From: Gammaproteobacteria bacterium
GTDB taxonomy: Bacteria; Pseudomonadota; Gammaproteobacteria; Burkholderiales; SHXO01
DNA: 64,000 bases
Reading direction: 5' to 3'
Assembly (NCBI GenBank): GCA_041488355.1
Contig: JBGPPC010000001.1
Location: 1,758 to 65,757 of the forward strand
Part shown: in pieces, positions 10,201 through 33,633 of the stretch
Layout of the letters: every line of letters begins with the position of its first letter
Position numbering within the stretch: the first letter of the stretch is position 1
Position numbers and translations under genes: made by a program
Notes under the pieces: generated by a model
What the model was told of the DNA's origin: nothing
The model's input: only the letters and a program-made list of their open reading frames with translations
Database searches by the model: none

Positions 10201-10206
10201 TCGTGC

Positions 10207-10229: not shown

Positions 10230-10234
10230 TCGTT

Positions 10235-11731: not shown

Positions 11732-12170
11732 CCTTGCGCGCACTCTCCCGATGCTGAATCTCGCGCTGGGATAAGCGGCTGTATCTACTGTGGCTTTTTA
11801 CTTGTCTGCCGCATGGTGAGATTGCTTCTCTACACGGATCGATTCAGTTCAGAATCGGCGCTATACATATAAGCAAGACTGGCAAGATCGGCTCGGTTAA
11901 TAGTCGCAGCCCCGATACCCGCGCCTTCCTGCCCTGCCCGTCTCGCTGTGGCATTCGTGCTCAGTTTAGGCTCAGCAATCGGTCGGTCAATCGATCGTTG
12001 CGTCTGAACCAACTACGAGCGGCGGTGGCAAGGAGCGCGGGTAACGAACGCGCAACTTCGGTTGCCGCGATAGGAACGCAGACGGTTAGTGCGGCGTCGC
12101 AGTACCCCCGCCGAGTTTGCGGTGCCGTTTGCGGCCTGCGAATGATGCGTCAGCCAGGAGGATGAATGAA

Positions 12171-13046: not shown

Positions 13047-13245
13047 TAGCCTAGTGGCTTCGGTGGGCGGGAGCCGATCGCGGTCCCCGGGAGCAAGGCA
13101 GGTGTGAAATGTTCAGGGCATGGCACGTTGTGGGGGTCAATTGCGCAGCAGCGATCGCGAGCGCGGGATTGCTCCACTTCCTGCTGTTTTCGATTACGAG
13201 CAGCCGTTCGTCTAGGGCGCCAGCAACTGGTTGTGCGGCGGTCTG

Positions 13246-15917: not shown

Positions 15918-15984
15918 GCGTCGTGCGATGTCGCGATGTGAGATGTCGGAGTAACAAACTCTAACTGATCGGAGGTCACCAGGA

Positions 15985-16935: not shown

Positions 16936-16972
16936 AGTTCCCTTACTCTTCTGACTTAAGGAGGCTCACAAA

Positions 16973-18154
16973 ATGTCCGCTATGCGTATTGGGTACCTAC
17001 AGAGCAAGACCATGGGCGCAGCGTTGGTGGCTGCCGCGCTTTTGATGACGGGGGGTAGCGCCGGAACAGCTGTGGGTGCTCCTTCGGTCGACGCAAACTC
17101 CGCGGCGTGTGGCGGTTCGCAATCGGCCATCGTCGCCGAGTCGTTCGCGCTGCTCGCGACGGCCCAGCGACACGCGACAGTCTGGAACGGGCCGTCCACT
17201 GGTCCGAAGGCGGCAGCCGGCAAGTCGGTCGTCTACGTGGCGCAGGACATGCGAAACGGCGGCGTACTGGGGGTGAGCGAAGGGGTCCAGAGCGCTGCCA
17301 GCGCAATCGGCTGGAAGCTCAAGATCATCGATGGCGCGGGTACCGTCGCCGGAAGGGTTGCGGCCATCAACCAGGCAGTCGCGTTGAGGCCGGACGGGAT
17401 CATCCTGGGGTCGGTTGATGCACAGGAGGAGGCAGCCGCGATCCGCGCCGCCGCGAAGCAAGGAATCAAGATCGTTGGCTGGCACTCAGCCGCGTCGACC
17501 GGCGCGATCGAGGATCCTCCCATCTTTACCAATGTCACGACAGACGCAGTCAGCGTTGCGAAGGTGGCGGGCGCGTACGCTCTCCAAACTACCGGCTGCA
17601 CCGCAGGCGCGGTGATCTTCTGGCAGTCCGGGGACGCGATAGGCATCAAGAAAGCCGAGACGATGCGAGCCGTGGTTCAAGGCTGCCCGGGTTGCAAGGT
17701 CCTGGACTACGTCAACACACCTTTGGCGGACACCGCGGCGCGGATGCCCCAGAATACGACCTCACTGCTTCAGCGGTTCCGTAACACCTGGACGATCGGA
17801 CTGGGTATCAACGACCTCTATTTCGACTTCGCATCTCCAGCGCTGCGCACCGCCGGCGTTGGGCCGTCTGGGCCACCGACGTTCATCTCCGCCGGGGATG
17901 GGAGCGTAGCCGCTTTCGACCGAATCCGCTCTGGGCAGTACCAGACCGGAACCGTCGCGGAGCCGCTGCACGAAGCTGGATGGCAGCTTGTTGACGAGCT
18001 AAACCGGGCGCTGGCTGGCCAGCCGTCGAGCGGTTACGTAGCGCCGGTTCACCTGGTGACAAAGGACAATATCCAGTTCGACGGAGGACCCAAGAACATC
18101 TATGACCCAGACAACAACTACCAGAGCCACTACAAGGCAATATGGGGGAAATAG
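16973..18154 (+). CDS. Periplasmic sugar-binding protein (RbsB-like) for the adjacent ABC transporter
   Basis: 393 aa with a signal peptide and an AAGGAGG ribosome-binding site. It has a type-I periplasmic-binding fold pattern (VVYVAQDMRNGG, IILGSVD). Confidence 0.85.
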   Translation: MSAMRIGYLQSKTMGAALVAAALLMTGGSAGTAVGAPSVDANSAACGGSQSAIVAESFALLATAQRHATVWNGPSTGPKAAAGKSVVYVAQDMRNGGVLGVSEGVQSAASAIGWKLKIIDGAGTVAGRVAAINQAVALRPDGIILGSVDAQEEAAAIRAAAKQGIKIVGWHSAASTGAIEDPPIFTNVTTDAVSVAKVAGAYALQTTGCTAGAVIFWQSGDAIGIKKAETMRAVVQGCPGCKVLDYVNTPLADTAARMPQNTTSLLQRFRNTWTIGLGINDLYFDFASPALRTAGVGPSGPPTFISAGDGSVAAFDRIRSGQYQTGTVAEPLHEAGWQLVDELNRALAGQPSSGYVAPVHLVTKDNIQFDGGPKNIYDPDNNYQSHYKAIWGK

Positions 18155-18596
18155 CGGCTAGGCGAGGCCGATTAGTGGCTCTCTCGGAAGCTCCTCAGGC
18201 TGATGCATGCGCACGTGATCGCCAAGCTGCAGCAGCCGCGGAAGGCGTGCCGCAATGCTTGCACAGGTGCTGTTGCAGCAACGTCGAGGTAGCATAGTCT
18301 TGTTCCGTCATAGGCGCGACCTGCAAGTAAGCATTAGCGCAGCGCGCAGCCGTGCGCTGCGAGGAGGCTTGGGCGCGAGTTCCAAAGGTGCCAACACGTT
18401 GTCGCCGATGTCCTGATCATCGCGACACTGCCCACTCGCGCAATGCTGATGACCGCTTTGCGGGGTTTTGTCGTGGCCGGAATATTAGCCGTGGCGGTTG
18501 TCTTCGCATTCGCCTTGGACGCCGTCACGGCCCTGGTATAGCTTAGTGTGAAGGGCGACCCTCCATGCCAAAAGCACATTACGCGCGAGTTACTCT

Positions 18597-18641
18597 CCTT
18601 TCACGGCGGTAACCGGGGTTCGAATCCCCGTGGGGACGCCA
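18597..18641 (+). pseudogene. Orphan 3' half of tRNA-Glu(UUC): anticodon loop to CCA
   Basis: CCTTTCACGGCGGTAACCGGGGTTCGAATCCCCGTGGGGACGCCA matches the E. coli tRNA-Glu 3' half almost base for base (anticodon loop CTTTCAC, T-arm GGGGTTCGAATCCCC, acceptor strand ending GGGGACGCCA). No complementary 5' acceptor strand (GTCCCCA) or D-arm lies upstream. Confidence 0.8.
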
Positions 18642-20285
18642 CACCAGCAATAGCAGGAAACAGCAGCGCAGCGATGGGCGTTGCGCCCTCTAGGTACCAG
18701 CCGCCGTCACCGGTCAACTTCAACCTGAGCGAATCCCCCAGCAGCCTGCGTAGCGCCTGACGGGCGACCGGCACGTCTGCGTGCAGCAGGTCTTGGAAGT
18801 GCTCCACCACCGCGCGGACCTCCTCGTGCAGCCCAGCGACCGGGTCGTGTTGCCGCGCCAGCGCATGCCGCTCCAGTTCCGCATCCAGTTCCGCGATGCG
18901 GTCCTCGCGCAGCTTGATCTCCTGCAAGACGCGCTCCGGGGCTTGGCCTCGGGCGATGAGGGCGCAGAAGCGGTCTAGTTCGCGCTGCACCTTAGCGCGC
19001 TGGGCGCGCAGCTTAGCGCATAGGTCGGGCTGGGCGCGTTGCTGCTCCGCCAGCTGCTCCAGCGCTTCTTCGATGACGATGCGGAAGGCATCGGGTGTGA
19101 GGATTTGGTGCTTGAGCGCGTCGAGCACGAGCCCATCGACGGTCTTCGTCTGGATCTGTTTGCGGTTGTTGCAAGCGCCGCGCTGGATGTAGGCGCTGCA
19201 CCGGTAGTGGGGCACCACGCGCCGGGTTGCTCCGCCTCCAGGGGAACACCGGTGGCGGTCATCGATGCCCCGCAAGCGCCGCAGTGGAGGAGGCCGCTCA
19301 GCAGGTGTCTCGCCGTCGTTCCGCGCTCGGGGCGTCCGAATAGCTTGCCCCCTTGGGTGCGCAGATAGCTGGCGCGTACGGCTGCGAGACGCGCTTGTAC
19401 GGCGGCCCACAGCGGCTCCGGTACGATGCGTAGTTCGGGGCGCTCGACCCTGAGAAACTCCTTCTGACGCACGGTTGTGGCGGTGCCTCCTTTGTATACC
19501 GTCCGGTATTCGCCGAAAGGGATAATGCCGCCGTACCGCTCGCAGTGCAGGATTTCGTAAATGGCCGAAGCGCTCCACGAACCCGTACCCCGGTTGCCTT
19601 GGCGCGGGCGGGGAGGGGCAACGCCGTTGAAATACTCCGCCAGCAGGTTCGCGTAGCGAGGTACGCCGTTCAGCGTCTTGGCGATGCACGCATGTCCGTA
19701 ACCATCGCGGTAGCATGAATAAATCCCGACGATGACCGCCGCTTGCTCAGCGTTGATGCGCCATTCGGTGTGGTTGTCGCAGCGGTGCCGGTCATACCCG
19801 TAGACCAGGCCTCCAGTGGAATGCCCCGCCTTGGCCTTGCGCAGTAGCGCGTCCCGCGCCCGTTGACCGGCTTTCTCCCGCTCCAGCTCAGCCGCAAACG
19901 AAACCGCCCCCACCAAGAAACGATCCACCGCAGTCTCGAACCTCAACTGCTCCTTCGTCAGGTAGAAGTGCACCTGCACGCCGGCAGCCTCGACCTGTGC
20001 CAGCACTTGCGCGGTTTGCACTTGGTCGCGACCCAACCGAGAAAGCTCGGACATGACGATGACGTCGAACTCGCGCAGGCGGGTGAGCATACGCAGCAGA
20101 CCGGGGCGATTCTTAAACTCCGCCCCGCTAACGTTGTCGTCGGTGAAGACGAGGTCGTCGCTGACTTCCCAGCCTTTGGACGAGGCGTAGGCGCGTGCGT
20201 GGTCTACCTGCCGCGTGACGGACTTGTTGTCCTCCCCTTTGTCGTCATCGTCAGTGGACTTGCGAGCGTAGACAGCGGCTCTCAT
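18601..20285 (-). pseudogene. Large serine recombinase, disrupted by one frameshift
   Basis: The N-terminal ORF (18975-20285) has the resolvase catalytic domain (AVYARKSTDD, VMSELSRLGRD) and recombinase domain up to LLHCGACGASM. The zinc-ribbon and coiled-coil C-terminus (YRCSAYIQRGACNNRKQIQ...) continues in another frame (track ORF 18601-19716). The frame switch lies at about 19205-19260. The last ~13 codons are encoded by the tRNA-Glu fragment. Confidence 0.85.
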
Positions 20286-20578
20286 TTCGCCTCCAGCCGG
20301 TATTCGCCGTCCGCGCCTTTCACAATCCGCAGCGGTGTGCCGCCGATGCCGTACTTCGCACTGCGCAAGTCGCTCAGGGCGGTGGTAACACTGCTGGGTT
20401 TGAGCGGACCTGCGCCTGCACCAAGCTCCTCCAGCGTAGCTTCGCCGCCGCCGGTGAAGAATTCGTAGAGCCGGCGCTTGAAACCGGGCTTGCGAATGCT
20501 GGGTGCCTCTGCCTTAGGTGCGGCTGCCTTAGACTTGGCGCGCTTGCTTGGGCGTTGACGCTTCTGCTTGGTGGTCAT
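20282..20578 (-). CDS. Small basic protein with a winged-helix-like C-terminus (hypothetical)
   Basis: 98 aa with a Lys/Ala-rich tail and then ATLEELGAG...TTALSDLRSAKYGIGGTPLRIVKGADGEYRLE. An ATGA overlap joins it to the recombinase start. Confidence 0.6.
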   Translation of the reverse strand: MTTKQKRQRPSKRAKSKAAAPKAEAPSIRKPGFKRRLYEFFTGGGEATLEELGAGAGPLKPSSVTTALSDLRSAKYGIGGTPLRIVKGADGEYRLEAK

Positions 20579-20720
20579 GGTCTCTCCATAGGTAGTGGTC
20601 GATTGCGGCGCGAATCAGCGCCGCCACCGGCGTGCCGGTCTTCCTCGAAAGCGTACGCAGGGCCGCGAGCTGCCTCGGTTGTAAGTAGGCAGCGATCATT
20701 TCTTGGTTGCCCATGCGCAT
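20529..20720 (-). CDS. Ribbon-helix-helix (CopG/Arc-like) DNA-binding protein
   Basis: MRMGNQEMIAAYLQPRQLAALRTLSRKTGTPVAALIRAAIDHYL shows a beta-strand plus two helices, the RHH pattern. AGGAGA lies 6 nt upstream of ATG 20720. It is the first gene of the RHH, wHTH, recombinase module. Confidence 0.6.
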   Translation of the reverse strand: MRMGNQEMIAAYLQPRQLAALRTLSRKTGTPVAALIRAAIDHYLWRDHDHQAEASTPKQARQV

Positions 20721-20944
20721 TCGCTTTCTCCTGATGACGGCGGCATGTCCGGCACGCTTAATGTTAGCGCAGCGCATCGAGAATGTAACTACCTCTAGCA
20801 GCCAGCGGTGCCCGCACGCACGAGGGCGTCGGGATCGTTGACGCCGACGGAGGTGGGCTTGCCGCGCGCGAGGCTTGTTGTCGCCTCTAGGTCAGCTGTT
20901 ACAAGTGCTATGATGAACCGCCCCATCAATGGGCAGAGGTCGTC

Positions 20945-21754
20945 ATGCTATCGGCTGCTACAAGAGATCTGGCAAGGAATCTAATCAACCCCCGCATCGC
21001 CGATCGTTGGTCAGGATTCGTAGGCGCTGGCGAGTCGATGATTGGAACGTACAATCAACGCGGGCTGCTCGTTAGCGGGCCGATGGTCCAGGCAATGAAC
21101 AAGTTTGGGCGAGATGAATTAAGAGCACAGATCCAGATTGCATTCACGAACATACAGCGAACCGTTGTACAGACCAAGACAACATACTCGCAGGATCTGG
21201 CGTTCGATCTGAAGAGGGAATTGGAGATCTACGCGAACCAGAGTGTTATAGAGATCATAGGCGAAATCAACAAACGTTGGGCAAGCGTTGCAACAGTTAA
21301 CCCAGAGTCCATGGATCGCGAGAAGCGCATTGCGTTAGATATCTTTAGCGGCGAAATCGACATTCTCGTGGAGCAACTACGACAAGCAGCGACTGCAGAA
21401 AAAAGTTCTGGTGGCGTGTACAACTTCCACGGTCCTGTTGGTGCGTTTCAAGTGGGTAATTACAACATCGCGAATGTTACCCAGAATTTGGCTGACGCTG
21501 ATAGGGCAAAGGTGACTGAGGCGTTGGACTTGTCTATTCAGTCTTTGCAACAGAGCAGCCACCCAAAGTCCAGCGAGATGGAGCGTCTCGCCGAGGAGGC
21601 ACGGGAAGAGCTGACAAAGCCTGTGCCGAATGATACGAAGCTGCTCACGATTCTTACGGTCTTGAGCAGTGCGGTTGAGGGTATTGCCAACGCCCGGCCG
21701 GCCTACGAAGCGCTGCGCACTGCGCTCCTCTTCTGGGGAATTTCTTTACCTTGA
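20945..21754 (+). CDS. Hypothetical protein (island cargo)
   Basis: 269-aa ORF in the lower-GC block with GAGG upstream. I recognise no family. Confidence 0.6.
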   Translation: MLSAATRDLARNLINPRIADRWSGFVGAGESMIGTYNQRGLLVSGPMVQAMNKFGRDELRAQIQIAFTNIQRTVVQTKTTYSQDLAFDLKRELEIYANQSVIEIIGEINKRWASVATVNPESMDREKRIALDIFSGEIDILVEQLRQAATAEKSSGGVYNFHGPVGAFQVGNYNIANVTQNLADADRAKVTEALDLSIQSLQQSSHPKSSEMERLAEEAREELTKPVPNDTKLLTILTVLSSAVEGIANARPAYEALRTALLFWGISLP

Positions 21755-22467
21755 TGATCGAGCGCCGCGGCTCCGGATAAATCCTGCCAATGGCCGACGA
21801 CGAGAACAACGCGATCTCGCTGAAGGAGTTCTTCGAGAGCACGCCCCCAGGCACGTGGGTGATGGTCTCGGAACCCGTGAAAGCCGCGCGCTCCTCAGGG
21901 GCCTATCCCGAACTTGTCGACGTGGAATTGGAGCTCTACTGCGACAATGAACGCTGTAACGGAATCCGGGTCTTTAGGCTCACGAGCAGCCACACTCTGC
22001 GCCCAAAAACGTGGGACGATGAGTTCGTAATCTATCGGTGCAAGAACTGCGGGGCCAAGCAAAAGAGGTTTGCAATCTCTGCGATTCTGCTTGAAGATTT
22101 GAAGACCGCGAATATGTTCAAGTACGGAGAGGTGCCATTTTTCGGGCCCCCGACACCGAAGACGGTCAGCGACCTGCTGGGGAAGCATCGGGAGTATTAC
22201 TTCAAGGGGCGTAGCGCGGAAAACCAGGGGATGGGAATCGCGGCCTTCGCTTACTACCGTCGCGTCATCGACGGTCTGAAGAACGACCTCTTCGACAAGA
22301 TCATTCAAGTGTGCAAGGTACTAAATGTTTCTCCCGAGCTCATTGATGAGCTAACGACCGCAAAGGCGGAAACTCAGTTCACGAAGGCCATGGACTCGAT
22401 CAAGCATGGTATTCCGCAAGCACTCCTCATCAGCGGGCGAGAACCCGCTGAAGCTTCTATATGCAGC

Positions 22468-23784
22468 CAGTGCTGTCCGGTTAACGCGTGATTCGAGTTC
22501 CGTAACCTACTGAGCAGTTGAAGCAATGAGCCATTTTTGGTGTGTCCCCGATTTGAACGCCGAATTGCGCGAATCTGTTGCCTTCTCAGGCACAGGTGAC
22601 GCGCATGCACGTTGGCAAGTTGGTGTTCGCCCAGTTGATGGAGCATCTTCCGTGGAAGTCTTTCGGTCGCATCGTCGAGCGTTACGGCGGCGATCATCGG
22701 ATCCGTGGGTTCAGTTGCGCCAATCAGTTCCGCTGCATGGCCTTCGCGCAGCTCACCTATCGCGAGAGCTTGCGCGACATCGCCACCTGCCTTCGTGCGC
22801 AGTCCGCCAAGCTCTACCATCTGGGTATTCGGGGAACGGTGGCACGCAGCACGCTGGCCGACGCGAACGAGGCGCGCGACTGGCGCATGTATGCGGAGTT
22901 TGCCCAACATCTGATCAGGACCGCGCGCCGGCTCTACGTGGACGAGCCCCTCGGCGTAGAGCTCAAGGAGACCGTCTACGCGCTCGATTCCACCACGATC
23001 GACCTGTGCTTGGCGCTGTTCCCCTGGGCGCCATTTCGCTCGACCAAGGCGGCGATCAAGCTGCACACGCTGATCGACCTGCGCGGCAACATCCCCAGCT
23101 TCATCCACATCTCCGATGGCAAGCTGCACGATGTCAATGTCCTCGACCAGTTGCTGCCCGAGCCCGGCGCCTTCTACGTGATGGACCGGGGCTATCTCGA
23201 CTTCGAGCGCTTGCACCGATTGCACCTCGCAGGAGCCTTCTTTATCACTCGCGCCAAGTCCAATCTCAAGGCCCAGCGCCGCTACTCCCATCCGGTGGAG
23301 CGCTCCACCGGCCTCATTTGCGATCAGACCATCACCCTCACGGTGTTCTACTCCAAGGCGGGCTACCCCGAGGCACTGCGGCGCATTCGATTCAAGACCC
23401 AGGAAGGCAAGACGCTGGTGTTCCTGACCAACAACTTCGCGCTGCCGGCGCTCACAATCGCCGAACTTTATCGCTGCCGCTGGCAGGTGGAACTGTTCTT
23501 CAAGTGGATCAAGCAGCATTTGCGCATCAAGTCCTTCTTCGGCACCTCGGAGAACGCGGTCAAGACCCAGGTGTGGATCGCCGTGAGCGTCTACGTCCTC
23601 GTGGCGATCGCGAAGAAACGCCTGGGCCTGGACGCATCCTTGTATGAAACCCTACAGATCCTGAGTCTGACCATGTTCGAGACAACCCCACTGCATCAGC
23701 TGCTTAGACTCGACCCGCAGTGCTCAATTTCGCTGGGTTCGTCGAGTCAGTTGAATCTATTCGAAAGTTAACCGGACACTACTG
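22468..23784 (+). mobile_element. IS4-family insertion sequence (about 1.3 kb) with terminal inverted repeats and a 9-10 bp target duplication
   Basis: IRL is CAGTGCTGTCCGGTTAAC (22468-22485). IRR is GTTAACCGGACACTACTG (23767-23784). ATATGCAGC(C) is directly repeated at 22459-22468 and 23785-23794. Confidence 0.9.
22605..23771 (+). CDS. IS4-family DDE transposase
   Basis: The N-terminus MHVGKLVFAQLMEHLPWKSFGRIVERYGGDHR is of the DUF4372 type. DDE context is YALDSTTIDL, FYVMDRGYLDF and YRCRWQVELFFKWIKQ. Confidence 0.92.
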   Translation: MHVGKLVFAQLMEHLPWKSFGRIVERYGGDHRIRGFSCANQFRCMAFAQLTYRESLRDIATCLRAQSAKLYHLGIRGTVARSTLADANEARDWRMYAEFAQHLIRTARRLYVDEPLGVELKETVYALDSTTIDLCLALFPWAPFRSTKAAIKLHTLIDLRGNIPSFIHISDGKLHDVNVLDQLLPEPGAFYVMDRGYLDFERLHRLHLAGAFFITRAKSNLKAQRRYSHPVERSTGLICDQTITLTVFYSKAGYPEALRRIRFKTQEGKTLVFLTNNFALPALTIAELYRCRWQVELFFKWIKQHLRIKSFFGTSENAVKTQVWIAVSVYVLVAIAKKRLGLDASLYETLQILSLTMFETTPLHQLLRLDPQCSISLGSSSQLNLFES

Positions 23785-24023
23785 ATATGCAGCCTTAAGT
23801 GAGGGCATGCACAACGATTCCGACGATGTCTGCCTCGAGCTTGCCACGAGCATTCGAGTTGTCATAGCGGATTTGGCCGAAAGACTCTCAGCTGCGCTCA
23901 AGGAAGACGCTGGACTAAAGGAGGCGGTGGCGCGATTGGTTGGCAAGAAAAGCAAACCAACCGCCGCATGAAGGATCTGGCGGATCATCAAGCCGTCGCT
24001 AAATCGATGTTGAGGCGGCGCGA

Positions 24024-24542
24024 GTGACAGCTGTGAAGGATTGGATGTACGGAGTTGCCATCCGTCACGATCGGGACCTAATGCTCCTCTGCCGTATTAA
24101 AAGGTCCAGAAAGGGCGATGCGTACTTTCTGATGCCGCGCGACGAGCCTGGCTGGGACCCCCATGCAAGCTATCACCGGGACGGGACGCGCCATGTAAGA
24201 AGTCACGGCGGAAAGTTCCTCGTCAGCAAGGTACAGAAACCCGACGGGTCCTTCCGAGGTACCGAAGGTCTTTACGCAATGGCTATCCAGCCTGGTGAAG
24301 TCCCGCTCCTTAATACGCCTTGCGCACGTGAAGAGTTTTCTGAGGTCTTTGAGATTGGTGGCGAGCAACTACCTATTGAGGAGCATCACACATTGGCAGT
24401 TGATCTCGCCGAACCTGGATACTCCGACATTTTGGTGCTCGGCAAGGAAATCGTCGCTCAGAAAAGCTTTCAGGACTCCTCACCATGGATTCTCGTTACT
24501 CTATGGAGAGGTCTGTTACCGGTCACACCGGAGTGCTCATGA
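24024..24542 (+). CDS. Hypothetical protein (island cargo)
   Basis: 172-aa ORF with no recognised motif. Its stop overlaps (ATGA) the start of the next small gene. Confidence 0.5.
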   Translation: MTAVKDWMYGVAIRHDRDLMLLCRIKRSRKGDAYFLMPRDEPGWDPHASYHRDGTRHVRSHGGKFLVSKVQKPDGSFRGTEGLYAMAIQPGEVPLLNTPCAREEFSEVFEIGGEQLPIEEHHTLAVDLAEPGYSDILVLGKEIVAQKSFQDSSPWILVTLWRGLLPVTPECS

Positions 24543-24733
24543 AAAAGACCACCATCAAAGCAACGGCCGCAGTCCTAGTGGGCACGATGAGCATGTATGT
24601 CTTTGCTGACGAGCAGCAGTCGCCTGGCCTGCCATCGCAGTTGCATGAACACATCGAATCCTCATTTAGCACTTCGGCGCTCAGCAGCGGGTCCGTCATG
24701 CAAATAGGGTCGACCGCCGCGTGGGCACGCTAG
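24539..24733 (+). CDS. Small secreted protein (64 aa)
   Basis: Signal peptide MKKTTIKATAAVLVGTMSMYVFA/DEQQ. It is translationally coupled to the upstream ORF. The track lists a longer 24485 start that I do not favour. Confidence 0.5.
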   Translation: MKKTTIKATAAVLVGTMSMYVFADEQQSPGLPSQLHEHIESSFSTSALSSGSVMQIGSTAAWAR

Positions 24734-24758
24734 ACCGCGGTTTTCGGCTGAGCGACTT

Positions 24759-25574
24759 ATGTCCGATAAGGGTTACTTTCAGAAGGAGAAGTTCGCGACC
24801 GTAGCCATCTCGAGCTTCGATGAGAGCTTGGCGAAATCGGGGCCGATTGACCAAGTTCTTCTGGCCAATACGATTGTTGGCACGGGCTTCAATGTGCACC
24901 CAAGCGGCGTCTTAGTAACGGCGTTTCACGTCTTGAAGCCGTTCATGACAGAAGAGGGGAGTGACAAGCTGGACTGGCTATATTCGAGCAACACAACGCT
25001 TGCTGTTCAAATAGAGAATCCGTTCAAAGCCCCAGTGTCGGCGGTACTGCTACTGGAAGATAGCGGAGACCCGAGTTCGTCAGGGCTCCTAGCCACCGCT
25101 CCGGTCTCGCTCGTCCACGCAAGCCCCGAATGGGACCTTGCAATACTGAGGCTGCCCGATCCTCGCCGCCTCGAATCCCGGCGCTGGAAGTTGTATGGGT
25201 ATCCCTACCTAGAGCTAGAACGGCCCGAATCAGTTACCGAGGGTATGGAGGTTGGCATTTGTGGGTTCCCTCTGGGGTCGGACTTGCAGCGTGGCTTCCG
25301 CATCGTCACCAGCGTACTCACCAAGGGGATTGTCAGCGGGATTTCTCCATTCCCCGGGGCGGGCCAAGTACAGAGCTACCTATTGAATGCCAACACGTAC
25401 GAGGGCAGCAGCGGCGGGCCGGTCATTTCACTCGAAACGGGAAGGGTGTTCGCCGTAGTTGACTCTGGCGTCACGGTCAACAACGAAACGTTACCTTGGC
25501 TTTGCGTCGCCCAACCGCTGCATCGATACGTCACAGACGAGCGGATTCGAAACGCTTTGAGGACGCCGGGCTAG
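24759..25574 (+). CDS. Trypsin-like (S1/chymotrypsin fold) serine protease, no signal peptide
   Basis: The catalytic triad context is readable: TAFHVLKP (His), WDLAILRL (Asp), YEGSSGGPVIS (Ser). Confidence 0.8.
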   Translation: MSDKGYFQKEKFATVAISSFDESLAKSGPIDQVLLANTIVGTGFNVHPSGVLVTAFHVLKPFMTEEGSDKLDWLYSSNTTLAVQIENPFKAPVSAVLLLEDSGDPSSSGLLATAPVSLVHASPEWDLAILRLPDPRRLESRRWKLYGYPYLELERPESVTEGMEVGICGFPLGSDLQRGFRIVTSVLTKGIVSGISPFPGAGQVQSYLLNANTYEGSSGGPVISLETGRVFAVVDSGVTVNNETLPWLCVAQPLHRYVTDERIRNALRTPG

Positions 25575-25787
25575 CCTACGAAGCGCTTCGCAATCCTCCT
25601 TGCTGCTCATGCAACGCGCGTCGACGCCTGGACCAGCCGCTCGGCCCCTGTTGGCAACGGGTAAACGCTGACCTAAGGCGCGAGCTTCCACAGCATCCTA
25701 CCAACGCCCGTCGACAGGTCGGTGAGTTGCTACTGCGCGTTTGTCGACGTACAAGCGGTGGCTATTGTCGCGCATAATTGGTGTCCT

Positions 25788-26315
25788 CTATCGCGCCGGC
25801 GATGATTCCGTATCGTCCTGCCGGGCGACGGTTTCGCGTTGCCACCGAAGGCGACCAATGGACTTGAACTTACTGACCCCCAAAGCGCCGCGCTCGTTTC
25901 GTGATTTTGACCCTGGTTCCTTCAGCGCCCGGACAACTGCTTCGCGCTCAGCTTCATAAATTGCCGTGGCTTCGAAGTTGCCATCAAGGAGAACGAGTAG
26001 AACTGCGTCGAACTCTTTCTCGATGTCGATAGAACCCATGCGCTGACCGCGCTTGCTGCCTTCAAGCACACACCGCCCCTTGATCTGAAGTAGTCGGAGT
26101 TGACCATCACGACTCTCGGTTGCATCGTAGCCCGCTTGTCTAGCGGGTGTCAGGGTGACCCCAAGAATTCGTGCGGCTTCGTACTCGGCGACCTCCCCGG
26201 TTATTCCAAGCGGCTTGCCTGTGAGAGCACGGTATTGCTGAGCGAGCCGCTTTGCGTCAGCCAATAGTGCGAGCACGGGATCGGTCGTCATGTGCTGGGC
26301 GGGATATGAAATCAC
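25788..26315 (-). CDS. DUF6998-like protein (putative PD-(D/E)xK-type fold)
   Basis: 175 aa. LGITGEVAEYEAARILGVTL...GYDATESRDGQLRLLQIKGR...FDAVLLVLLD fits the D...QxK pattern I associate with DUF6998. It is the last gene of a three-gene minus-strand operon. Confidence 0.55.
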   Translation of the reverse strand: MISYPAQHMTTDPVLALLADAKRLAQQYRALTGKPLGITGEVAEYEAARILGVTLTPARQAGYDATESRDGQLRLLQIKGRCVLEGSKRGQRMGSIDIEKEFDAVLLVLLDGNFEATAIYEAEREAVVRALKEPGSKSRNERGALGVSKFKSIGRLRWQRETVARQDDTESSPAR

Positions 26316-26321
26316 CTGGGA

Positions 26322-26723
26322 TTATCTGCATACCGAGGGACACTCACCGCCCGTTCCGCCTGGGCCCGAGTAGCACGGACCACCTGGACCCGCATAACAT
26401 GGACCGCCGGGACCTGAATATGCAAGCCCCCCAGGACCATCGTAGGCAGGCCCTCCAGGTCCTGAATATCGAGGACCACCGGGACCAGGGTATGCGGGAC
26501 CACCGGCCCCGGGGTAACGAGGTCCGCCCGGACCCGCATAACATGGACCGCCGGGAGCTGAATAAGCCGGGCCGCCCGGACCATCGTACGCAGGTCCCCC
26601 TGGACCCGAGTAGCAAGGTCCGCCGGGCCCCGCATACCCCTTGCAGTTACATACATCCTGTCCGACGGCTGGATCGAAATAGGCAAGCGTCACCAAAAGC
26701 AATAGCTTGGCTTTCCATCTCAT
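26322..26723 (-). CDS. Secreted Cys/Tyr-containing protein made of 12 tandem Y-x-GPGGP-x octapeptides
   Basis: GGAGGGAGG lies 8 nt upstream of the ATG. Signal peptide is MRWKAKLLLLVTLAYF. Then come 12 units such as YAGPGGPC YSGPGGPA YDGPGGPA. The DNA has 24-nt periodicity with a 144-nt higher-order repeat. Confidence 0.75.
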   Translation of the reverse strand: MRWKAKLLLLVTLAYFDPAVGQDVCNCKGYAGPGGPCYSGPGGPAYDGPGGPAYSAPGGPCYAGPGGPRYPGAGGPAYPGPGGPRYSGPGGPAYDGPGGLAYSGPGGPCYAGPGGPCYSGPGGTGGECPSVCR

Positions 26724-26827
26724 TGTGGGACCTCCCTCCGCCTGATTACGCTATTCTCGTCCCCCCATTCTCGTGCGCCCCCAAATCTGGCAAGCCCGTC
26801 TGGAAGACTGGTTAGACGTGGGCATGT

Positions 26828-27772
26828 TCAATCTTTCGTCTTCTTAATCTTGTCGAACGCCGCGTTGACCTCCTGCATGCGTCGTGTCGCGAGGTCTTTG
26901 AGAAACTGGTCAAGGATTGGATATCGATCTGGGTGGTATGTCATTGCAAGCGCCTGCCGTCTCGCCTTCGGTGTTTCCTCACGATCGGACAATAGCGGCA
27001 TAAGTACGTCCTCTGGTTCTGCCTCCATTCGATGTGAGTGAATCTCATCGAGGGGAATGAGCTTGTCGTAGGTAAACCTTTCCTTGTACAACGGTGACTG
27101 GATGTTGATGCGGATGCGATGTGGAATGGAGAATTGAGTGGCGACCCTCACACCGGTGCTGGCGCGCCAAGCGAGCTTCCGTGCTCTTGGGTCATAGACG
27201 AGATCGGTATTGCCGATCTTACACTCCAAGAAGTACTCTCCCAACACCTTCTTCAAACTTTGCCCATCTTGCGCACTTGCCCGCTCACCCTTGCTCGCCA
27301 GGATGCTGTCGATGGAATACGCTTCAAAGCCAGTAGGCGTATAGTTTATGACGATGGCGGCCTCGCGCCAGGTCGATAGCAAAATAGCTTGTCTTACCAA
27401 GTTTTGGTCTGCGTGCCAGTTAACTTTTGATTGGAACAAGATCGACTTGGTTTCAGTTCTTGATCCCCAAGAGAGCCTCAACTCGAAAATCCCGTCTGCA
27501 CCGAGATAGGATTCGGTTGCGCCCTTGCCCCGGCCACGAAACTTGGCGTAGTCCATCGACCATTTCCACAGCCCGTATATCTCCTCGTTTTGGTTACGCG
27601 TTACTTCAACGGAGTGTGTTCCTGTTCTTAGGCAGGCGCCAAGATCACCGGTGAGGGTATCCTCGTCCTCGTTCGCTGACCAAAAGTCCGCTACAGCCCT
27701 TTCGATCGATTGGTCCAGATGCTGGGCAATCGATTGCATGACCGCCCTTGGTATGTAGAGTCTGCGCAGCAT
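26828..27772 (-). CDS. Protein with an unknown (nuclease-like?) N-terminal domain and a C-terminal J-domain
   Basis: The C-terminus ARRQALAMTYHPDRYPILDQFLKDLATRRMQEVNAAFDKIKK carries the HPD tripeptide and the helix II/III pattern of DnaJ J-domains. The N-terminal ~250 aa are unassigned (GADGIFELRL...LFQSKV). Confidence 0.65.
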   Translation of the reverse strand: MLRRLYIPRAVMQSIAQHLDQSIERAVADFWSANEDEDTLTGDLGACLRTGTHSVEVTRNQNEEIYGLWKWSMDYAKFRGRGKGATESYLGADGIFELRLSWGSRTETKSILFQSKVNWHADQNLVRQAILLSTWREAAIVINYTPTGFEAYSIDSILASKGERASAQDGQSLKKVLGEYFLECKIGNTDLVYDPRARKLAWRASTGVRVATQFSIPHRIRINIQSPLYKERFTYDKLIPLDEIHSHRMEAEPEDVLMPLLSDREETPKARRQALAMTYHPDRYPILDQFLKDLATRRMQEVNAAFDKIKKTKD

Positions 27773-28047
27773 GTGAAGCGCCTAATATTCGCTAGGTTCC
27801 TTGTGTACTGAACGGCAGGGATGCAGCATACTTGCGCCGCAGGAGAATGACATCCGGGAGCAACTGTGGCAAGCCCGTCACAGACGGACGTGCACCCGAA
27901 GCCCGGATACGCCGCGAGGCGACGCCGCCCCTTCTGGCGCCCTTTATCGCGACCGTAGCAGGGCAGAACTACCCATCCCAACCGTGTAGGGACCATGTAT
28001 CCAGGCGAGCTTCTCAACCTCTTCCCTCCGTTTCGCGGACTGACGTC

Positions 28048-28884
28048 GTGTTCGTCGCGATGAGTTTCGATCATCGCTTCGACGATCTTTGGGACAAGGT
28101 TATCGAGCCTGCCGTTGGACAGGTCGATTGGCAAGGCCGCCGCCTGAAGGCCCATCGAGTCAACCTTACGAAGAAGAGTGATTCGATCATAGCGGAGATT
28201 GTTCAGAACATTGCAGAGGCCAGGCTGGTGCTCGCGGATATATCTACGATCGGGTGGCACCGTCGTTGGCTCAAGAAGGCTACCCCCTTCCGCAGCGCCA
28301 ACGTCATGTATGAGGTGGGGATCGGGCATTCAGCACGTCTTGCTGAGGAGATCGTTCTCATCCGAGGGGACAACGATCTTCTGGACTTCGACGTTCGTGG
28401 TGTCCGGGTGCACCAGTATCCTAGAGATCATGGCGAGGCGCTTGCGTTCGTAAGCGGACTGCTGACTGACGCGCTTAAGGGGGTCGAACAGCGGCGGAGC
28501 CTGGTAGTTCGCCGAGCCCTTCGATCCCTGAGTCCCCCAATGTTCGCCCTCCTTCACACGATGGGGGATATCGCCCATCCTCACGTGACTACCGTTGCAG
28601 AGATGTTCTCGTCGGGCGAGCGCCTTGATGCAGTCAGACACCTGCTCGCCGAGGGTATGATCGAAGCGTTCTATAAGCCGCTCCCCGAGGATTTCATGGA
28701 GCGGCCGGTCGCTGAACTCTTCTCTTACCGGGTCACTCCGTTCGGTCTCGTGGTCTATCAGACCGCCCGGGAAGACCTTCGATTCAACGACGCTCTTATC
28801 CCTTGGCTACAGACGGCAAAGGGCAAGGCGTGGATAAGGGAAGCATCGGCAAGGGCAGGGGACAGCAAGCGGGAGCCGGGATGA
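28048..28884 (+). CDS. Nucleoside 2-deoxyribosyltransferase-like / TIR-like (SLOG-type) N-terminal domain protein with an unknown C-terminal domain
   Basis: VFVAMSFDHRFDDLWDKVIEPAV...LVLADIS...NVMYEVGIGHS...IVLI matches the pattern of that fold class. Start set at GTG 28048, so the long track N-terminal extension from 27832 is not used. Confidence 0.5.
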   Translation: MFVAMSFDHRFDDLWDKVIEPAVGQVDWQGRRLKAHRVNLTKKSDSIIAEIVQNIAEARLVLADISTIGWHRRWLKKATPFRSANVMYEVGIGHSARLAEEIVLIRGDNDLLDFDVRGVRVHQYPRDHGEALAFVSGLLTDALKGVEQRRSLVVRRALRSLSPPMFALLHTMGDIAHPHVTTVAEMFSSGERLDAVRHLLAEGMIEAFYKPLPEDFMERPVAELFSYRVTPFGLVVYQTAREDLRFNDALIPWLQTAKGKAWIREASARAGDSKREPG

Positions 28885-29146
28885 TGCCTATCCTTGGCGT
28901 TCCGAGTTCGCGCCAGGAACAGGGGTTGCCGGCCGCCGGAAGCGCAACCTCCGCGCCGGCGCTTGCGGTTTTCGGTTATCGTCGCACTCACGAGTTACCG
29001 GCATCGGGCCTGTTTACGACCCCGAGAACTCTTTCACCTCAGCGCCCCCGCCCGCACTTCTTCGGCGAAGGTCTTCGCACAGTGTGGCGCCCGCCCGCAC
29101 ACGTTGCGCCGCCACGGCAACGGCTTGAGCAAGGGGATCGTGGGCC

Positions 29147-29850
29147 TCATGCGGCTGCCGCGTCGGCCCCCGCCGTAGACGGTCGAAACACAACCTGCGG
29201 CGCCGCCGCAGCCACGGCCGGTTCCTCGACCGAGTCCCAGGTCGCCTCCGCGTCGCGCTCGAGTGCGTCGAGATAGACGCGCATCCGGCTCAGCGCGACG
29301 CTTTCGGGATTCCAAGAAGGCGCGAACTGCGGTGGCTCCTCGTGGGCAACGGCCAGCGATGGGCGCAGCGGCGCGAAGTTCTCGCTGTTGGGCAGACGCC
29401 CGGCCGCTCTCAGCCGGCTCTCCAGATCGCGCACGACTTCGCGTGTGGCGCGCAGCTCGTCCGCGAGGCAATTGTGCTCCGCCGCGAGTACCCGCACTGC
29501 GCCCTTGCGCACCGCGTTCTCTGCAGCCTGCAGGACACGGCGCGCGGCCTCCACGTCGGCGCTCAACTGCTCGTGTGCCTGGCGTGCAACTTGGTGGCGC
29601 GAGCGAGCCTTGCCGAGCTCCTCTTCGCAGCGGGCGACCTTCGTGTTGCCAAGCTCCGGCTTTTCCCCAGAGCGCAGCCGCTCCGCGATTGCGGTGGCCA
29701 GCTCGCTCTGCGCCGTCTCGTGGTCCTGCGCGCGCTCCGCAAGACGTGCCTGCGTCTCAGCCGCAAGCTCCTCGCCGCGCTTTGCGATCTGTGTTGCCTC
29801 CTCGAGTCGGAGAGGTATCGCTGGACCGTCTTGACGAGCTTCTTAGGCAC
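29147..29850 (-). pseudogene. Coiled-coil protein, apparently frameshifted near its 5' end
   Basis: A long Glu/Ala/Arg-rich heptad-like frame is open from about 29840 to 29147, but its first start codon is the TTG at 29566. A GTG-initiated ORF (MPKKLVKTVQRYLS) in another frame abuts it at about 29805-29815. Confidence 0.35.
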
Positions 29851-29925
29851 AAGCCGGGGTCGGCAGCGGGCGACAGTATTGCGGAGGACGCCGTTGCGTC
29901 AGGATCTATCGGACGTCCTTCGCCG

Positions 29926-33333: not shown

Positions 33334-33633
33334 ATGAACAGCAATGACCGCATCATCCGTAACGCTTTCGCCAGCCTGGTCACCGCCGGCGCGCTCGCAT
33401 TCGCAGCCAACGGGATCGCCGCCGATACCGACCACAGCAAAGAAGAGAAGTGTGCAGGCATCGTAAAGGCCACCAAGAACGACTGCGCCACCAGCAAGAA
33501 CCAGTGCCATGGGCACGTCACCCAGGATCGCACGGCCGAAGGCTGGATCTACGTGCCCAAGGGCCTGTGCGAGAAGATCTCCGGCGCACATCTGAGCGAG
33601 GCGAGCGACCCGACGCCCGGCGTCAAGAACTAA
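33334..33633 (+). CDS. DUF2282-type secreted 4-Cys protein (second, orphan bufferin-like precursor)
   Basis: 99 aa with signal peptide ..[11 protein letters not shown]. The core is [25 protein letters not shown]...[12 protein letters not shown], with the same C-x10-C-x6-C-x20-C spacing as the copy at 46235. Confidence 0.8.

What the first reader, a model, noticed from the sequence alone, without database searches (positions are those of the whole stretch)
18597..29850. Decaying integrative island: serine-recombinase module plus a lower-GC cargo of uncharacterised, conflict-system-like genes
Seen: an RHH, small wHTH and large-serine-recombinase module (20720 down to 18601) adjoins a tRNA fragment. 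From about 20.9 to 28.9 kb the sequence is visibly less GC-rich than both flanks. That block encodes nine genes with no housekeeping signature: two unknowns, a Zn-ribbon/DUF4145-like gene, a small secreted peptide, a cytoplasmic trypsin-like protease, a D..QxK nuclease-like protein, a GPGGxY repeat protein, a J-domain fusion and a SLOG/TIR-like fusion. Three genes in or next to the block carry frame disruptions (recombinase at ~19205-19260, Zn-ribbon gene at ~22435, coiled-coil gene at ~29810), and one IS insertion is present. I saw no such disruptions in the other ~50 kb. Inference: this is a horizontally acquired island, now immobilised and eroding. Its cargo has the domain vocabulary of defence or inter-genomic conflict islands (proteases, nuclease-like folds, TIR/SLOG-like, DUF4145), but it matches no named defence system that I recognise. 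Any of the sub-modules could be a new system.
Basis: partly seen in the sequence, partly recalled or inferred. Interest (0 to 1): 0.62.

Follow-up and report, generated by a model that had tools for sequence, protein, structure and literature searches.

The report
Decayed accessory island with defence-type genes
An 11.7-kb stretch found only in this strain is the worn-out remnant of a mobile element carrying a mixed bag of single, mostly uncharacterised defence-type genes; the kind of thing is ordinary, but one gene family (a nuclease-like domain fused to a chaperone-recruiting J domain) deserves a test.

Summary
The observation largely holds. Relatives with ~90% nucleotide identity are collinear with the window up to 18154 on the left, and from 32669 down to ~29885 on the right. 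In between (18155 to ~29885, 11.7 kb) they share nothing with it.

The segment holds:
- a 46-nt tRNA-Glu 3' fragment;
- a frameshifted large serine recombinase with an RHH gene;
- a lower-GC cargo (0.57 against 0.64 +/- 0.02);
- an intact IS4-family element with a 9-bp target duplication.

Frame disruptions in the recombinase and the Zn-ribbon gene are real and recur in independent assemblies.

- The "nuclease-like" gene is a BisI-family modification-dependent restriction enzyme, a named defence type (PADLOC 1e-51).
- The "intact" TIR-like gene carries a frameshift at codon 14.
- The coiled-coil ORF is cut at the junction, not demonstrably frameshifted.
- DUF4145 is not supported.
- None of the proposed multi-gene modules recurs elsewhere. 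Wherever it could be tested, each cargo gene travels alone.

Most interesting are a 314-aa PD-(D/E)XK-like/J-domain fusion, intact here and widespread, found next to defence genes in two of three other genomes, and a rare TIR-like/wHTH fusion.

Verdict: a decaying defence-type islet, a new member of a known kind, of modest interest.

The parts
18155..18596 (.). Strain-specific spacer of unknown origin between the stop codon of the ABC-transporter binding protein and the tRNA fragment. It contains an 81-aa ORF (18334-18579, minus strand) with no family match.
   Evidence: Relatives L253-L259 are collinear up to 18154 and unrelated from 18155 on. No Pfam hit.
18597..18642 (+). 3' fragment of a tRNA-Glu(UUC) gene, from the anticodon loop to the CCA end. 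The 5' half is missing. It overlaps the last 14 codons and the stop codon of the recombinase ORF.
   Evidence: 93.6% identity to annotated E. coli tRNA-Glu over 46-47 nt. ARAGORN finds no tRNA. Rfam tRNA model scores 15.6 bits, below the gathering score. Sequence read.
18601..20285 (-). Large serine recombinase pseudogene with a frameshift at ~19245-19255 inside the zinc-ribbon domain.
   Evidence: Resolvase 7.5e-29, Recombinase 1.8e-09, and Zn_ribbon_recom split between two frames. The C-terminal part aligns to a Paracoccus recombinase up to 15 residues before the end. The same sequence is present in L001.
20282..20578 (-). 98-aa basic protein translationally coupled to the recombinase. The wHTH assignment is not verified.
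   Evidence: ORF. No Pfam, PADLOC, NCBIfam or PHROG hit.
20529..20777 (-). Ribbon-helix-helix protein.
   Evidence: RHH_3 8.5e-07 and RHH_1 at its threshold.
20945..21754 (+). 269-aa all-helical protein of an unnamed family of uniform length (~275 aa).
   Evidence: 511 representatives at E<=1e-3. No Pfam or PADLOC hit. GC 0.52.
21790..23971 (+). Zn-ribbon protein pseudogene (phrog_25239 family). It has a +1 frameshift at ~22435 and is interrupted by the IS. The coding parts are 21790-22467 and 23794-23971.
   Evidence: phrog_25239 1e-32. Frames. The repaired 284-aa product is 43% identical over 97% of its length to a Leptospira plasmid protein. Pfam DUF4145 is not hit.
22468..23784 (+). IS4-family insertion sequence (ISPosp4-like). 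The transposase is at 22578-23771, the 18-nt inverted repeats at 22468-22485 and 23767-23784, and the 9-bp target duplication at 22459-22467 and 23785-23793.
   Evidence: DUF4372 4e-32 and DDE_Tnp_1 2e-31. Repeats. Plasmid hits are annotated as IS4 family. JGI and Logan contigs break inside it.
24024..24542 (+). 172-aa protein of a rare soil-metagenome family with an invariant PHASYHxDG motif. It is a stand-alone gene.
   Evidence: 43 homologues. Alignment A1. 80 metagenome loci with no conserved neighbour.
24485..24733 (+). Small ORF. From Met19 (24539) it would give a 64-aa precursor with a signal-peptide-like N-terminus.
   Evidence: ORF and sequence. No family hit. The signal peptide was judged by eye only.
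24759..25574 (+). Trypsin-like serine protease with His57, Asp126 and Ser218 present and no signal peptide.
   Evidence: Trypsin_2 1.5e-17. Triad motifs located. Only generic PADLOC similarity (PDC-M35A 1.5e-08). No plasmid or phage homologue.
25788..26315 (-). BisI-family modification-dependent restriction endonuclease homologue. The likely start is the ATG at 26291, giving 167 aa.
   Evidence: PADLOC mREase_II PDLC03209 1e-51 over profile positions 10-161 of 166. DUF6998. NhoI 8q5n E=4e-4 and Eco15I 8q5m. The E...YD...QIK motif aligns with the catalytic residues described in PMC11347163.
26322..26723 (-). 133-aa Cys-rich protein of GPGGPxY repeats with a signal-peptide-like N-terminus.
   Evidence: ORF. 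Degenerate 24-nt and 72-nt tandem repeats at 26359-26627. No family hit. JGI called a different frame here.
26828..27772 (-). 314-aa fusion of a PD-(D/E)XK-like N-terminal domain (invariant E37, D38, D93, Q114, K116) with a C-terminal J domain carrying the HPD motif. It is intact.
   Evidence: 174 homologues of full length. Invariant columns. AF2 pLDDT 93.9. Weak Foldseek hits to MspJI, Dna2, SPARDA, RecU and Hjc, plus J domains. 53 of 65 members match Pfam DnaJ. The family profile matches PDB J domains at 7.5e-05.
27995..28884 (+). TIR-like (CAP12/Pycsar-type, deoxyribosyltransferase-like) domain fused to a MarR-like wHTH. A -1 frameshift follows codon 13 (~28034).
   Evidence: 16 homologues. 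Alignment A2 and frames. AF2 pLDDT 81. Foldseek hits to TIR-STING, SARM1 TIR, DNPH1 and MarR proteins. 12 of 16 members match PF10137. phrog_3634 1.8e-09.
29147..29842 (-). GC-rich coiled-coil ORF. The frame is open from the right junction but has no start codon before 29566, so it is probably 5'-truncated.
   Evidence: Frames. The junction lies at 29840-29885. No significant family hit.

Best explanation
Window 18155 to ~29885 is an 11.7-kb strain-specific accessory segment. It lies between a sugar ABC-transporter operon and a PNPOx/DUF1348/CMD gene cluster. It is a mosaic remnant of a mobile element.

Structure:
- One end carries an integration module (RHH protein, small basic protein, large serine recombinase) abutting a stranded tRNA-Glu 3' half. 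This module is dead: the recombinase is frameshifted.
- The body is a lower-GC collection of nine unrelated single-gene units.

What the cargo does:
- One gene is a recognisable defence gene, a BisI-family endonuclease. Such enzymes cut DNA carrying 5-methyl- or 5-hydroxymethyl-cytosine and need no partner methylase.
- Two others carry effector domains typical of defence genes: a TIR-like domain fused to a wHTH (inactivated), and a PD-(D/E)XK-like domain fused to a J domain (intact).
- The rest are of unknown function: the 269-aa and 172-aa proteins, the small secreted peptide, the cytoplasmic trypsin-like protease and the GPGG repeat protein.

After arrival the segment was fixed in place and began to erode: two further frameshifts, an IS4 insertion and a truncated terminal ORF.

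Shown: the boundaries, the composition, the domain content, the inactivations, and the independence of the cargo genes from one another.
Inferred: delivery by the serine recombinase, a defence role for anything other than the BisI homologue, and the order of events.
For: - Boundaries. Relatives are collinear up to 18154 (L253-L259) and from 32669 down to 29885 (L260-L263), and have no similarity to anything in between.
- Composition. The cargo is about 3 sd below the window mean in GC and has low GC3.
- Recombinase module and tRNA-Glu fragment.
- BisI family. PADLOC 1e-51, matches to NhoI and Eco15I, and the catalytic motif present.
- TIR-like/wHTH.
- J-domain fusion. Homologues lie beside Ppl-like, HNH and PDC-S15 genes and an ICE transfer region.
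- The TIR-like homologue in Rubrivivax lies beside putAbiC.
- Erosion. Frameshifts in three genes, one IS with a target duplication, and one ORF without a start. The same sequences appear in other assemblies.
- Independence of the cargo genes.
Against: - No empty site was found. Where the relatives diverge they carry different genes (GST, LysR and others on the left; a 327-aa secreted protein on the right), and those are unrelated to each other. The locus could be a rearrangement point rather than a simple insertion.
- There are no att-like direct repeats.
- The tRNA fragment is in the wrong place for a simple insertion into a tRNA gene, and its 5' half is absent.
- The recombinase module and the coiled-coil ORF have host-like GC (0.60-0.69). 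They may not share a history with the low-GC cargo.
- Only one cargo gene matches a defence model. The protease, the 172-aa protein, the 269-aa protein and the GPGG protein carry no defence evidence at all.
- The nuclease assignment of the J-domain protein rests on weak fold hits (E>=0.028) plus a motif.
Confidence: 0.62

Rival explanations
1. The segment is a recombination-driven variable region (an accessory or defence hotspot) between conserved core genes. Its content is swapped by homologous recombination in the flanks. The serine recombinase module is just another decayed passenger and did not deliver the cargo.
For: - Relatives carry entirely different genes at both breakpoints rather than an empty site.
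- The breakpoints lie right at or just past the ends of conserved genes, immediately after the PBP stop codon and ~40-85 bp past the PNPOx stop codon.
- The segment is compositionally mosaic: recombinase module GC 0.60-0.65, cargo 0.52-0.58, coiled-coil ORF 0.69.
- There are no att repeats.
- The stranded tRNA fragment suggests the piece was copied from another locus.
Against: - The relatives' contigs do not show PBP and PNPOx linked at all, so a shared hotspot is not demonstrated.
- The recombinase sits exactly at one end of the segment, as is usual for integrative elements.
Confidence: 0.25
2. The segment is the remnant of a prophage or phage satellite. Its cargo consists of phage moron or superinfection-exclusion genes left behind after the structural genes were deleted.
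For: - The Zn-ribbon gene belongs to phrog_25239, and the TIR-like N-terminal domain to phrog_3634.
- 112 IMG/VR stretches encode relatives of the TIR-like protein; all but one of the 80 kept loci match only the TIR-like domain.
- Large serine recombinases are common phage integrases.
Against: - There are no structural, packaging, replication or lysis genes.
- The J-domain family, the 269-aa family and the recombinase have no relatives in IMG/VR contigs.
- The protease has no phage homologue.
Confidence: 0.1
3. The disruptions and the island itself are artefacts of metagenome assembly: a chimeric join, or homopolymer errors.
For: The source is a metagenome-derived contig. The frameshifts are single-base events.
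Against: - The left junction, both left-hand frameshifts and the left IS junction are identical in JGI contig L001.
- The right junction, the TIR-like frameshift and the right IS junction are identical in JGI L083 and Logan L084.
- L001 differs from the window at 30 positions in the flank, so it is not the same sequence record.
- The IS has a perfect 9-bp target duplication.
Confidence: 0.03

Closest known systems
[quoted passage not shown]
   Same: The 25788-26315 product is a single-domain protein of ~167-175 aa. It matches the PADLOC model over its full length (1e-51) and NhoI at E=4e-4. It has the helix Glu, the xD motif and the QxK motif at the positions of the NhoI/Eco15I active site. 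Like them, it has no adjacent methyltransferase.
   Different: Sequence identity to the solved enzymes is low. Specificity (GCNGC, number of 5mC bases required) is unknown. Activity has not been tested.
Integrative genomic islands and prophages mobilised by large serine recombinases (phiC31/Bxb1-type integrases, SCC ccr elements)
   Same: The recombinase has Resolvase, Recombinase and Zn-ribbon domains plus a coiled-coil C-terminus. It sits at the very end of a strain-specific, compositionally foreign block, with small DNA-binding proteins upstream.
   Different: The recombinase is frameshifted. No attL/attR or empty site could be identified. A tRNA-Glu 3' half overlaps its stop codon without the 5' half, which fits neither a serine-integrase att site nor a classical tRNA-targeting island.
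Bacterial TIR-domain defence effectors of the CAP12/Pycsar type (TIR-STING, PycTIR) and the related nucleoside 2-deoxyribosyltransferase/DNPH1 fold
   Same: The N-terminal 125 residues of the 27995-28884 product fold like TIR-STING, the SARM1 TIR domain and DNPH1. They carry an invariant NVMYExG motif that aligns with NVVFEFG of SfSTING.
   Different: The partner domain is a MarR-like wHTH rather than STING, SAVED or a cyclase partner. No CD-NTase or cyclase gene is nearby. Pfam hits are below the gathering score. The family is very rare (16 clusters). The window copy is frameshifted.
J-domain co-chaperones (DnaJ/Hsp40, DjlA, HscB) and PD-(D/E)XK (Mrr-like QxK) nucleases
   Same: The 26828-27772 product ends in a J domain with an invariant HPD motif. 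[quoted passage not shown]
   Different: I found no described protein combining these two domains, either in PADLOC (no hit for any of 65 members) or in the searchable literature. The only literature link between J proteins and phage defence is host DnaJ acting in sensing by bNACHT25 (PMC12169576). The nuclease fold assignment is weak.
IS4-family insertion sequences (ISPosp4-like)
   Same: DUF4372 + DDE_Tnp_1 transposase, 18-nt terminal inverted repeats, a 9-bp target duplication, and ~70% nucleotide identity to annotated IS4-family elements.
   Different: Nothing unusual. It is a new sequence variant.

Membership tests
BisI-family modification-dependent restriction endonuclease | Sequence homology to characterised members or to the family model | tested here: met
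   PADLOC mREase_II PDLC03209 1e-51 over 10-161 of 166 positions. Pfam DUF6998 29.6 bits against a cutoff of 27. NhoI E=4e-4 and Eco15I E=0.037.
BisI-family modification-dependent restriction endonuclease | PD-QxK active site: Glu in helix 1, xD, QxK | tested here: met
   In the alignment to NhoI, the query's YD and QIK fall on NhoI's WD and QVK, and a Glu lies in the preceding helix region. Motif definitions come from PMC11347163.
BisI-family modification-dependent restriction endonuclease | Cleavage within GCNGC only when several cytosines are 5mC or 5hmC | not testable with these tools
   Requires enzyme assays.
Large serine recombinase integrative element | Resolvase catalytic domain + Recombinase domain + zinc ribbon/coiled-coil C-terminus | tested here: met
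   Pfam hits. The C-terminal part aligns to other LSRs.
Large serine recombinase integrative element | Uninterrupted recombinase reading frame | tested here: not met
   The zinc-ribbon domain is split between two frames at ~19250. The same sequence is in L001.
Large serine recombinase integrative element | Definable attL/attR and an empty attB in relatives | tested here: not met
   No repeats between the ends. Relatives show unrelated DNA beyond both breakpoints, not an empty site.
tRNA-targeting genomic island | Intact tRNA gene at one end and a direct repeat of its 3' part at the other | tested here: not met
   No tRNA in the 64 kb. There is only one 46-nt tRNA-Glu 3' fragment and no second copy.
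IS4-family insertion sequence | DDE_Tnp_1 transposase, terminal inverted repeats, target-site duplication | tested here: met
TIR-domain effector (CAP12/Pycsar type) | TIR/flavodoxin-like fold with a conserved catalytic Glu | tested here: inconclusive
   Foldseek matches to TIR-STING, SARM1 TIR, B. cereus TIR and DNPH1 at E 3e-3 to 1.4e-2 with probability ~1.0. E89 is invariant and aligns with the Glu of SfSTING's NVVFEFG. 12 of 16 members match PF10137, but the best E-value is only 2.7e-4, and the window protein itself has no hit.
J-domain protein | J-domain helices II and III with an HPD loop | tested here: met
   H280 and D282 are invariant. 53 of 65 members match Pfam DnaJ. The profile matches PDB J domains at 7.5e-05. 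Foldseek matches to J domains have rmsd 3.9-4.7 A. The window protein alone is below threshold.
PD-(D/E)XK nuclease superfamily | [quoted passage not shown] | tested here: inconclusive
DUF4145 (PF13643) proteins | Match to the Pfam model | tested here: not met
   No DUF4145 hit for either the truncated or the repaired protein, even at E<=1.
Any named multi-gene defence system (PADLOC v2) | Two or more adjacent genes matching the components of one system | tested here: not met
   Only the single-gene mREase_II model is matched convincingly. The protease has generic hits only. No cargo pair co-occurs elsewhere.

The most novel reading that the evidence does not exclude
The 314-aa family represented by 26828-27772 is a new single-gene anti-phage or anti-plasmid system. 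In it a PD-(D/E)XK-type nuclease is coupled through its own J domain to the host Hsp70 (DnaK). DnaK would either hold the nuclease inactive until a phage hijacks or titrates the chaperone, or load it onto a phage protein-DNA complex.

The family is intact in this window and conserved at full length across Actinomycetota, Pseudomonadota and Bacteroidota, with invariant nuclease-type and HPD residues. It is absent from PADLOC. In two of the three other genomes examined it sits next to known or candidate defence genes.
Probability: 0.2. Interest if true: 0.65.

Novelty: new member of a known kind. Interest (0 to 1): 0.33.

Why it matters
As a whole this is an ordinary object: a small, decaying accessory or defence islet in an uncultured soil bacterium. 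Its value is as a pointer.

- It shows a BisI-type modification-dependent restriction gene in a lineage far from the characterised ones.
- It brings together two domain fusions that no defence catalogue lists: a nuclease-like domain with a J domain, and a TIR-like domain with a wHTH.

If the J-domain fusion proved to be a defence gene, it would be a case of an immune effector carrying its own adaptor for the Hsp70 chaperone. That would complement the recent finding that host DnaJ mediates phage sensing by bNACHT25.

The negative result also matters. The neat-looking "modules" in the window are accidents of adjacency, so cloning them as operons would be the wrong experiment.

Tried and rejected
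- Empty site. I scanned one genome per species with the left-flank binding protein. The nearest hit was 76% identical, with no synteny to its right. Exact-protein look-ups found only the same strain. Cluster members at >=90% identity gave ~90%-nucleotide relatives that fix both breakpoints but show no empty junction.
- att repeats. There is no repeat longer than 13 nt between the left end and the rest of the window.
- Module 24024-25574 as a system. Rejected: 80 loci with 172-aa homologues contain no protease or peptide, and no neighbour cluster apart from near-identical replicate contigs.
- Module 25788-27772 as a system. Rejected: J-domain homologues in Dyella, Ferribacterium and Arthrobacter have different neighbours. 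The ORF after the Dyella gene is DUF2971-like, not a GPGG repeat protein.
- Pairing of the 269-aa and 284-aa genes. The Beijerinckia and Leptospira plasmid homologues each lack the other gene. With only two examples this is weak.
- Phage origin. The recombinase, the J-domain family and the 269-aa family have no relatives in IMG/VR. The protease has none in phages or plasmids.
- Close recombinase relatives. Plasmids hold only hits of <=33% identity, so no intact sister element was found.
- One context look-up for a 269-aa homologue returned a 953-bp contig with no neighbours.
- Literature searches for DUF6998 and for J-domain/nuclease defence genes returned nothing relevant beyond the bNACHT25-DnaJ papers.

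Full report
**What is in the sequence**

The window has a GC content of about 0.64 (101 one-kb windows outside the region: mean 0.641, sd 0.024). From 20.9 to 28.9 kb it drops to a mean of 0.568. Fourteen of the 15 windows there are below 0.595, a value reached by only 3% of outside windows. Third-position GC of the ORFs in the block is 0.47-0.71, against 0.72-0.90 for flank genes. ARAGORN finds no tRNA gene and Rfam finds nothing above its gathering scores in the 64 kb.

**Boundaries**

Exact-protein look-ups found the same strain in two other data sets. JGI metagenome 3300052990 has two contigs that both break inside the IS. Logan SRR35968830 has contigs that break at the tRNA fragment and inside the IS.

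Cluster members of the flanking proteins at >=90% identity gave real relatives.
- Left side. Six JGI contigs (L253-L258) and L259 are 89-91% identical in nucleotide sequence through the ABC-transporter operon, up to 18154, the last base of the binding protein's stop codon. Beyond that they continue with a shared, unrelated sequence and with GST, LysR and TetR genes that occur nowhere in the window.
- Right side. Four contigs (L260-L263) are ~90-91% identical from 32669 down to 29885, with patchy similarity to about 29845. They then continue with unrelated DNA and a convergent 327-aa gene.

The strain-specific segment is therefore 18155 to ~29885 (11.7 kb). The relatives do not show an empty junction. 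Whether the two flanks are neighbours in those genomes is unknown.

**Integration module**

- 18975-20285(-) encodes the Resolvase and Recombinase domains and the first 18 positions of the recombinase zinc ribbon. The rest of the ribbon and a coiled-coil C-terminus are in another frame (18601-19716), so there is a frameshift near 19250.
- The C-terminal part aligns with a Paracoccus recombinase up to 15 residues before its end. The gene is otherwise full length.
- Its last 14 codons and its stop codon are encoded by the reverse complement of a 46-nt fragment (18597-18642, plus strand). That fragment is 93.6% identical to the 3' part of E. coli tRNA-Glu, from the anticodon loop to CCA.
- The 5' half of the tRNA is missing and no second copy exists. 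A tRNA 3' end next to an integrase gene is the classical island arrangement. Here, though, the tRNA is broken, and the whole piece, including 440 bp of unknown DNA to its left, is absent from relatives.
- My inference is that the segment was brought in from, or rearranged with, a locus where the element sat beside tRNA-Glu. I cannot show this.
- Upstream lie a 98-aa basic protein (wHTH not verified) and an RHH protein.

**Cargo, gene by gene**

1. 20945-21754: a 269-aa helical protein of an unnamed family. The family has 511 representatives of uniform length and no domain hit.
2. 21790-23971: a Zn-ribbon protein of phrog_25239 (1e-32).
   - It is inactivated twice, by an extra G near 22435 and by an IS at 22468.
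   - After removing both, the 284-aa product matches a Leptospira plasmid protein at 43% identity over 97% of its length.
   - Pfam DUF4145 is not matched.
3. 22468-23784: an IS4-family element with 18-nt inverted repeats and a 9-bp target duplication. Its GC3 of 0.82 is host-like, and assemblies break in it, so it is probably multicopy in this genome.
4. 24024-24542: a 172-aa protein with an invariant PHASYHxDG motif. It has 43 homologues, mostly from soil metagenomes.
5. 24485-24733: a small ORF with a signal-peptide-like start, judged by eye.
6. 24759-25574: a trypsin-like protease with the His/Asp/Ser motifs present and no signal peptide.
7. 25788-26315(-): a BisI-family modification-dependent restriction endonuclease.
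   - It matches the PADLOC mREase_II model at 1e-51 over the whole model.
   - It matches Pfam DUF6998 and the solved enzymes NhoI and Eco15I.
   - The YD and QIK motifs fall on the WD/AD and QVK/QIK active-site motifs described for those enzymes (PMC11347163).
8. 26322-26723(-): a Cys-rich GPGGPxY repeat protein with a signal-peptide-like start. It is encoded by degenerate 24-nt repeats.
9. 26828-27772(-): a 314-aa protein, discussed below.
10. 27995-28884: a TIR-like/wHTH fusion, discussed below.
11. 29147-29842(-): a GC-rich coiled-coil ORF. It is open from the junction but has no start codon before 29566. Because it opens where similarity to the relatives ends, truncation at the junction explains it better than the frameshift proposed at 29810.

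**The J-domain fusion**

- The family has 174 clusters, nearly all of full length (~310 aa). Named sources include Arthrobacter, Dyella, Ferribacterium, Nitrosomonas, Psychroserpens and Algoriphagus.
- In 65 aligned members (40-64% identity to the window protein), E37, D38, D93, Q114, K116, H280 and D282 are invariant.
- The AlphaFold model is confident (pLDDT 93.9, pTM 0.91).
- The C-terminal 65 residues are a J domain. 53 of 65 members match Pfam DnaJ, and the family profile matches PDB J domains at 7.5e-05.
- The N-terminal domain has no Pfam or PADLOC family.
- Its best Foldseek matches are PD-(D/E)XK nucleases: Dna2, MspJI, SPARDA, RecU, AspBHI and Hjc, plus UL24 among viral models. All are weak, with E>=0.028.
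- The order of secondary-structure elements fits the superfamily, with D93 at the start of one strand and Q114-x-K116 in the next. I therefore call it PD-(D/E)XK-like, not proven.
- Neighbours differ in each of the three genomes examined.
  - In Arthrobacter they are a Ppl-like ATPase (PADLOC 2.5e-29) and an HNH protein.
  - In Ferribacterium they are a PDC-S15 FRG protein (1.8e-30) beside conjugative transfer genes.
  - In Dyella it is a broken DUF2971 gene.
- It therefore looks like a stand-alone gene of variable regions rich in defence genes. I found no description of such a fusion in the searchable literature.

**The TIR-like/wHTH fusion**

- The family is very rare, with 16 clusters among 5.8 billion.
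- In the model (pLDDT 81), residues 1-125 resemble TIR-STING, the SARM1 and B. cereus TIR domains, and DNPH1. Residues ~128-273 resemble MarR-family wHTH proteins.
- Twelve of 16 members weakly match PF10137, the CAP12/Pycsar TIR domain.
- The invariant NVMYExG motif aligns with NVVFEFG of SfSTING.
- Relatives of the N-terminal domain are common in phage contigs (phrog_3634).
- The family's conserved N-terminus is in frame in Rubrivivax and in an ENA contig. In the window it is out of frame after codon 13. The window copy is at best N-terminally truncated.
- In Rubrivivax the gene lies beside putAbiC.

**Are there multi-gene systems?**

No evidence was found.
- Eighty metagenome loci with 172-aa homologues contain none of the other cargo genes and share no neighbour family.
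- PADLOC matches only the single-gene restriction model convincingly.

**Are the disruptions real?**

- The sequences around the recombinase and Zn-ribbon frameshifts and the left IS junction are identical in JGI contig L001.
- Those around the TIR-like frameshift, the coiled-coil start and the right IS junction are identical in L083 and L084.
- L001 differs from the window at 31 positions. Thirty of these are in the host flank, one is in the IS, and none is in the other island DNA.
- These are therefore separate observations of population variants that share the same island.

**Verdict**

It needs these corrections:
- One cargo gene is a member of a named defence family.
- The proposed operon-like modules are chance neighbours.
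- One "intact" module is broken.
- One "frameshift" is a truncation at the junction.
- DUF4145 is unsupported.
- Delivery by the serine recombinase is unproven.

The object is a new example of a known kind. The J-domain fusion, and to a lesser degree the TIR-like/wHTH family, are the parts worth an experiment.

Noticed in passing
window 6973-40534, compared with L001, L002, L083 and L084: Population variants of the same strain differ from the window at 30 sites in the left host flank (7888-18019, partly clustered at 8644-8894 and 9753-9813) and at 3 sites in the right flank. They differ at no site in the island apart from one in the IS (23400). The island is less diverse than its surroundings, which could mean recent arrival or a sweep.
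   Followed up: partly
window 18155-18596: These 440 bp of strain-specific DNA lie between the binding-protein stop codon and the tRNA fragment. They hold one 81-aa ORF on the minus strand and match no family. The origin is unknown; this may be a remnant of whatever lay upstream of tRNA-Glu at the donor locus.
   Followed up: partly
L259 (JGI 3300052990 contig Ga0534153_0005531): The metagenome that holds the island-bearing strain also holds an ~89%-identical relative. Its contig ends 225 bp after the binding-protein gene, with the sequence seen in island-free relatives. Two related populations with different content at this locus therefore coexist in one sample.
   Followed up: partly
window 33334-33633 (+) and neighbours: A BufA1 (PF10048, bufferin-type) gene lies just right of the island flank. 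Relatives have an additional BufA1-like gene with DUF1223 here.
   Followed up: no
window 35911-41955 (-): A 2014-aa protein combines Ser/Thr kinase, AAA_16, GAF and several PAS domains. It is a giant signalling protein.
   Followed up: no
L174-L252 (IMG/VR, mostly sample 3300045988): Dozens of phage contigs encode a protein of about 96 aligned residues related to the TIR-like N-terminal domain of the 27995-28884 product (27-29% identity, phrog_3634 family). One contig (L173) encodes a full-length relative that includes the wHTH part.
   Followed up: no
L086 5136-5837 (Dyella tabacisoli, upstream of its J-domain gene): This 233-aa protein has a segment (KISLHESGQG) that by eye is reminiscent of the invariant ASYHRDG motif of the window's 172-aa protein. 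tblastn found no similarity at E<=1e-3, so this may be coincidence.
   Followed up: partly
window 26322-26723 (-): The JGI gene caller chose a different frame here (a 90-aa ORF with GC3 0.84) from the GPGGPxY repeat frame (GC3 0.47, but with a signal-peptide-like start and 133 codons without a stop). Which frame is expressed is unresolved.
   Followed up: no
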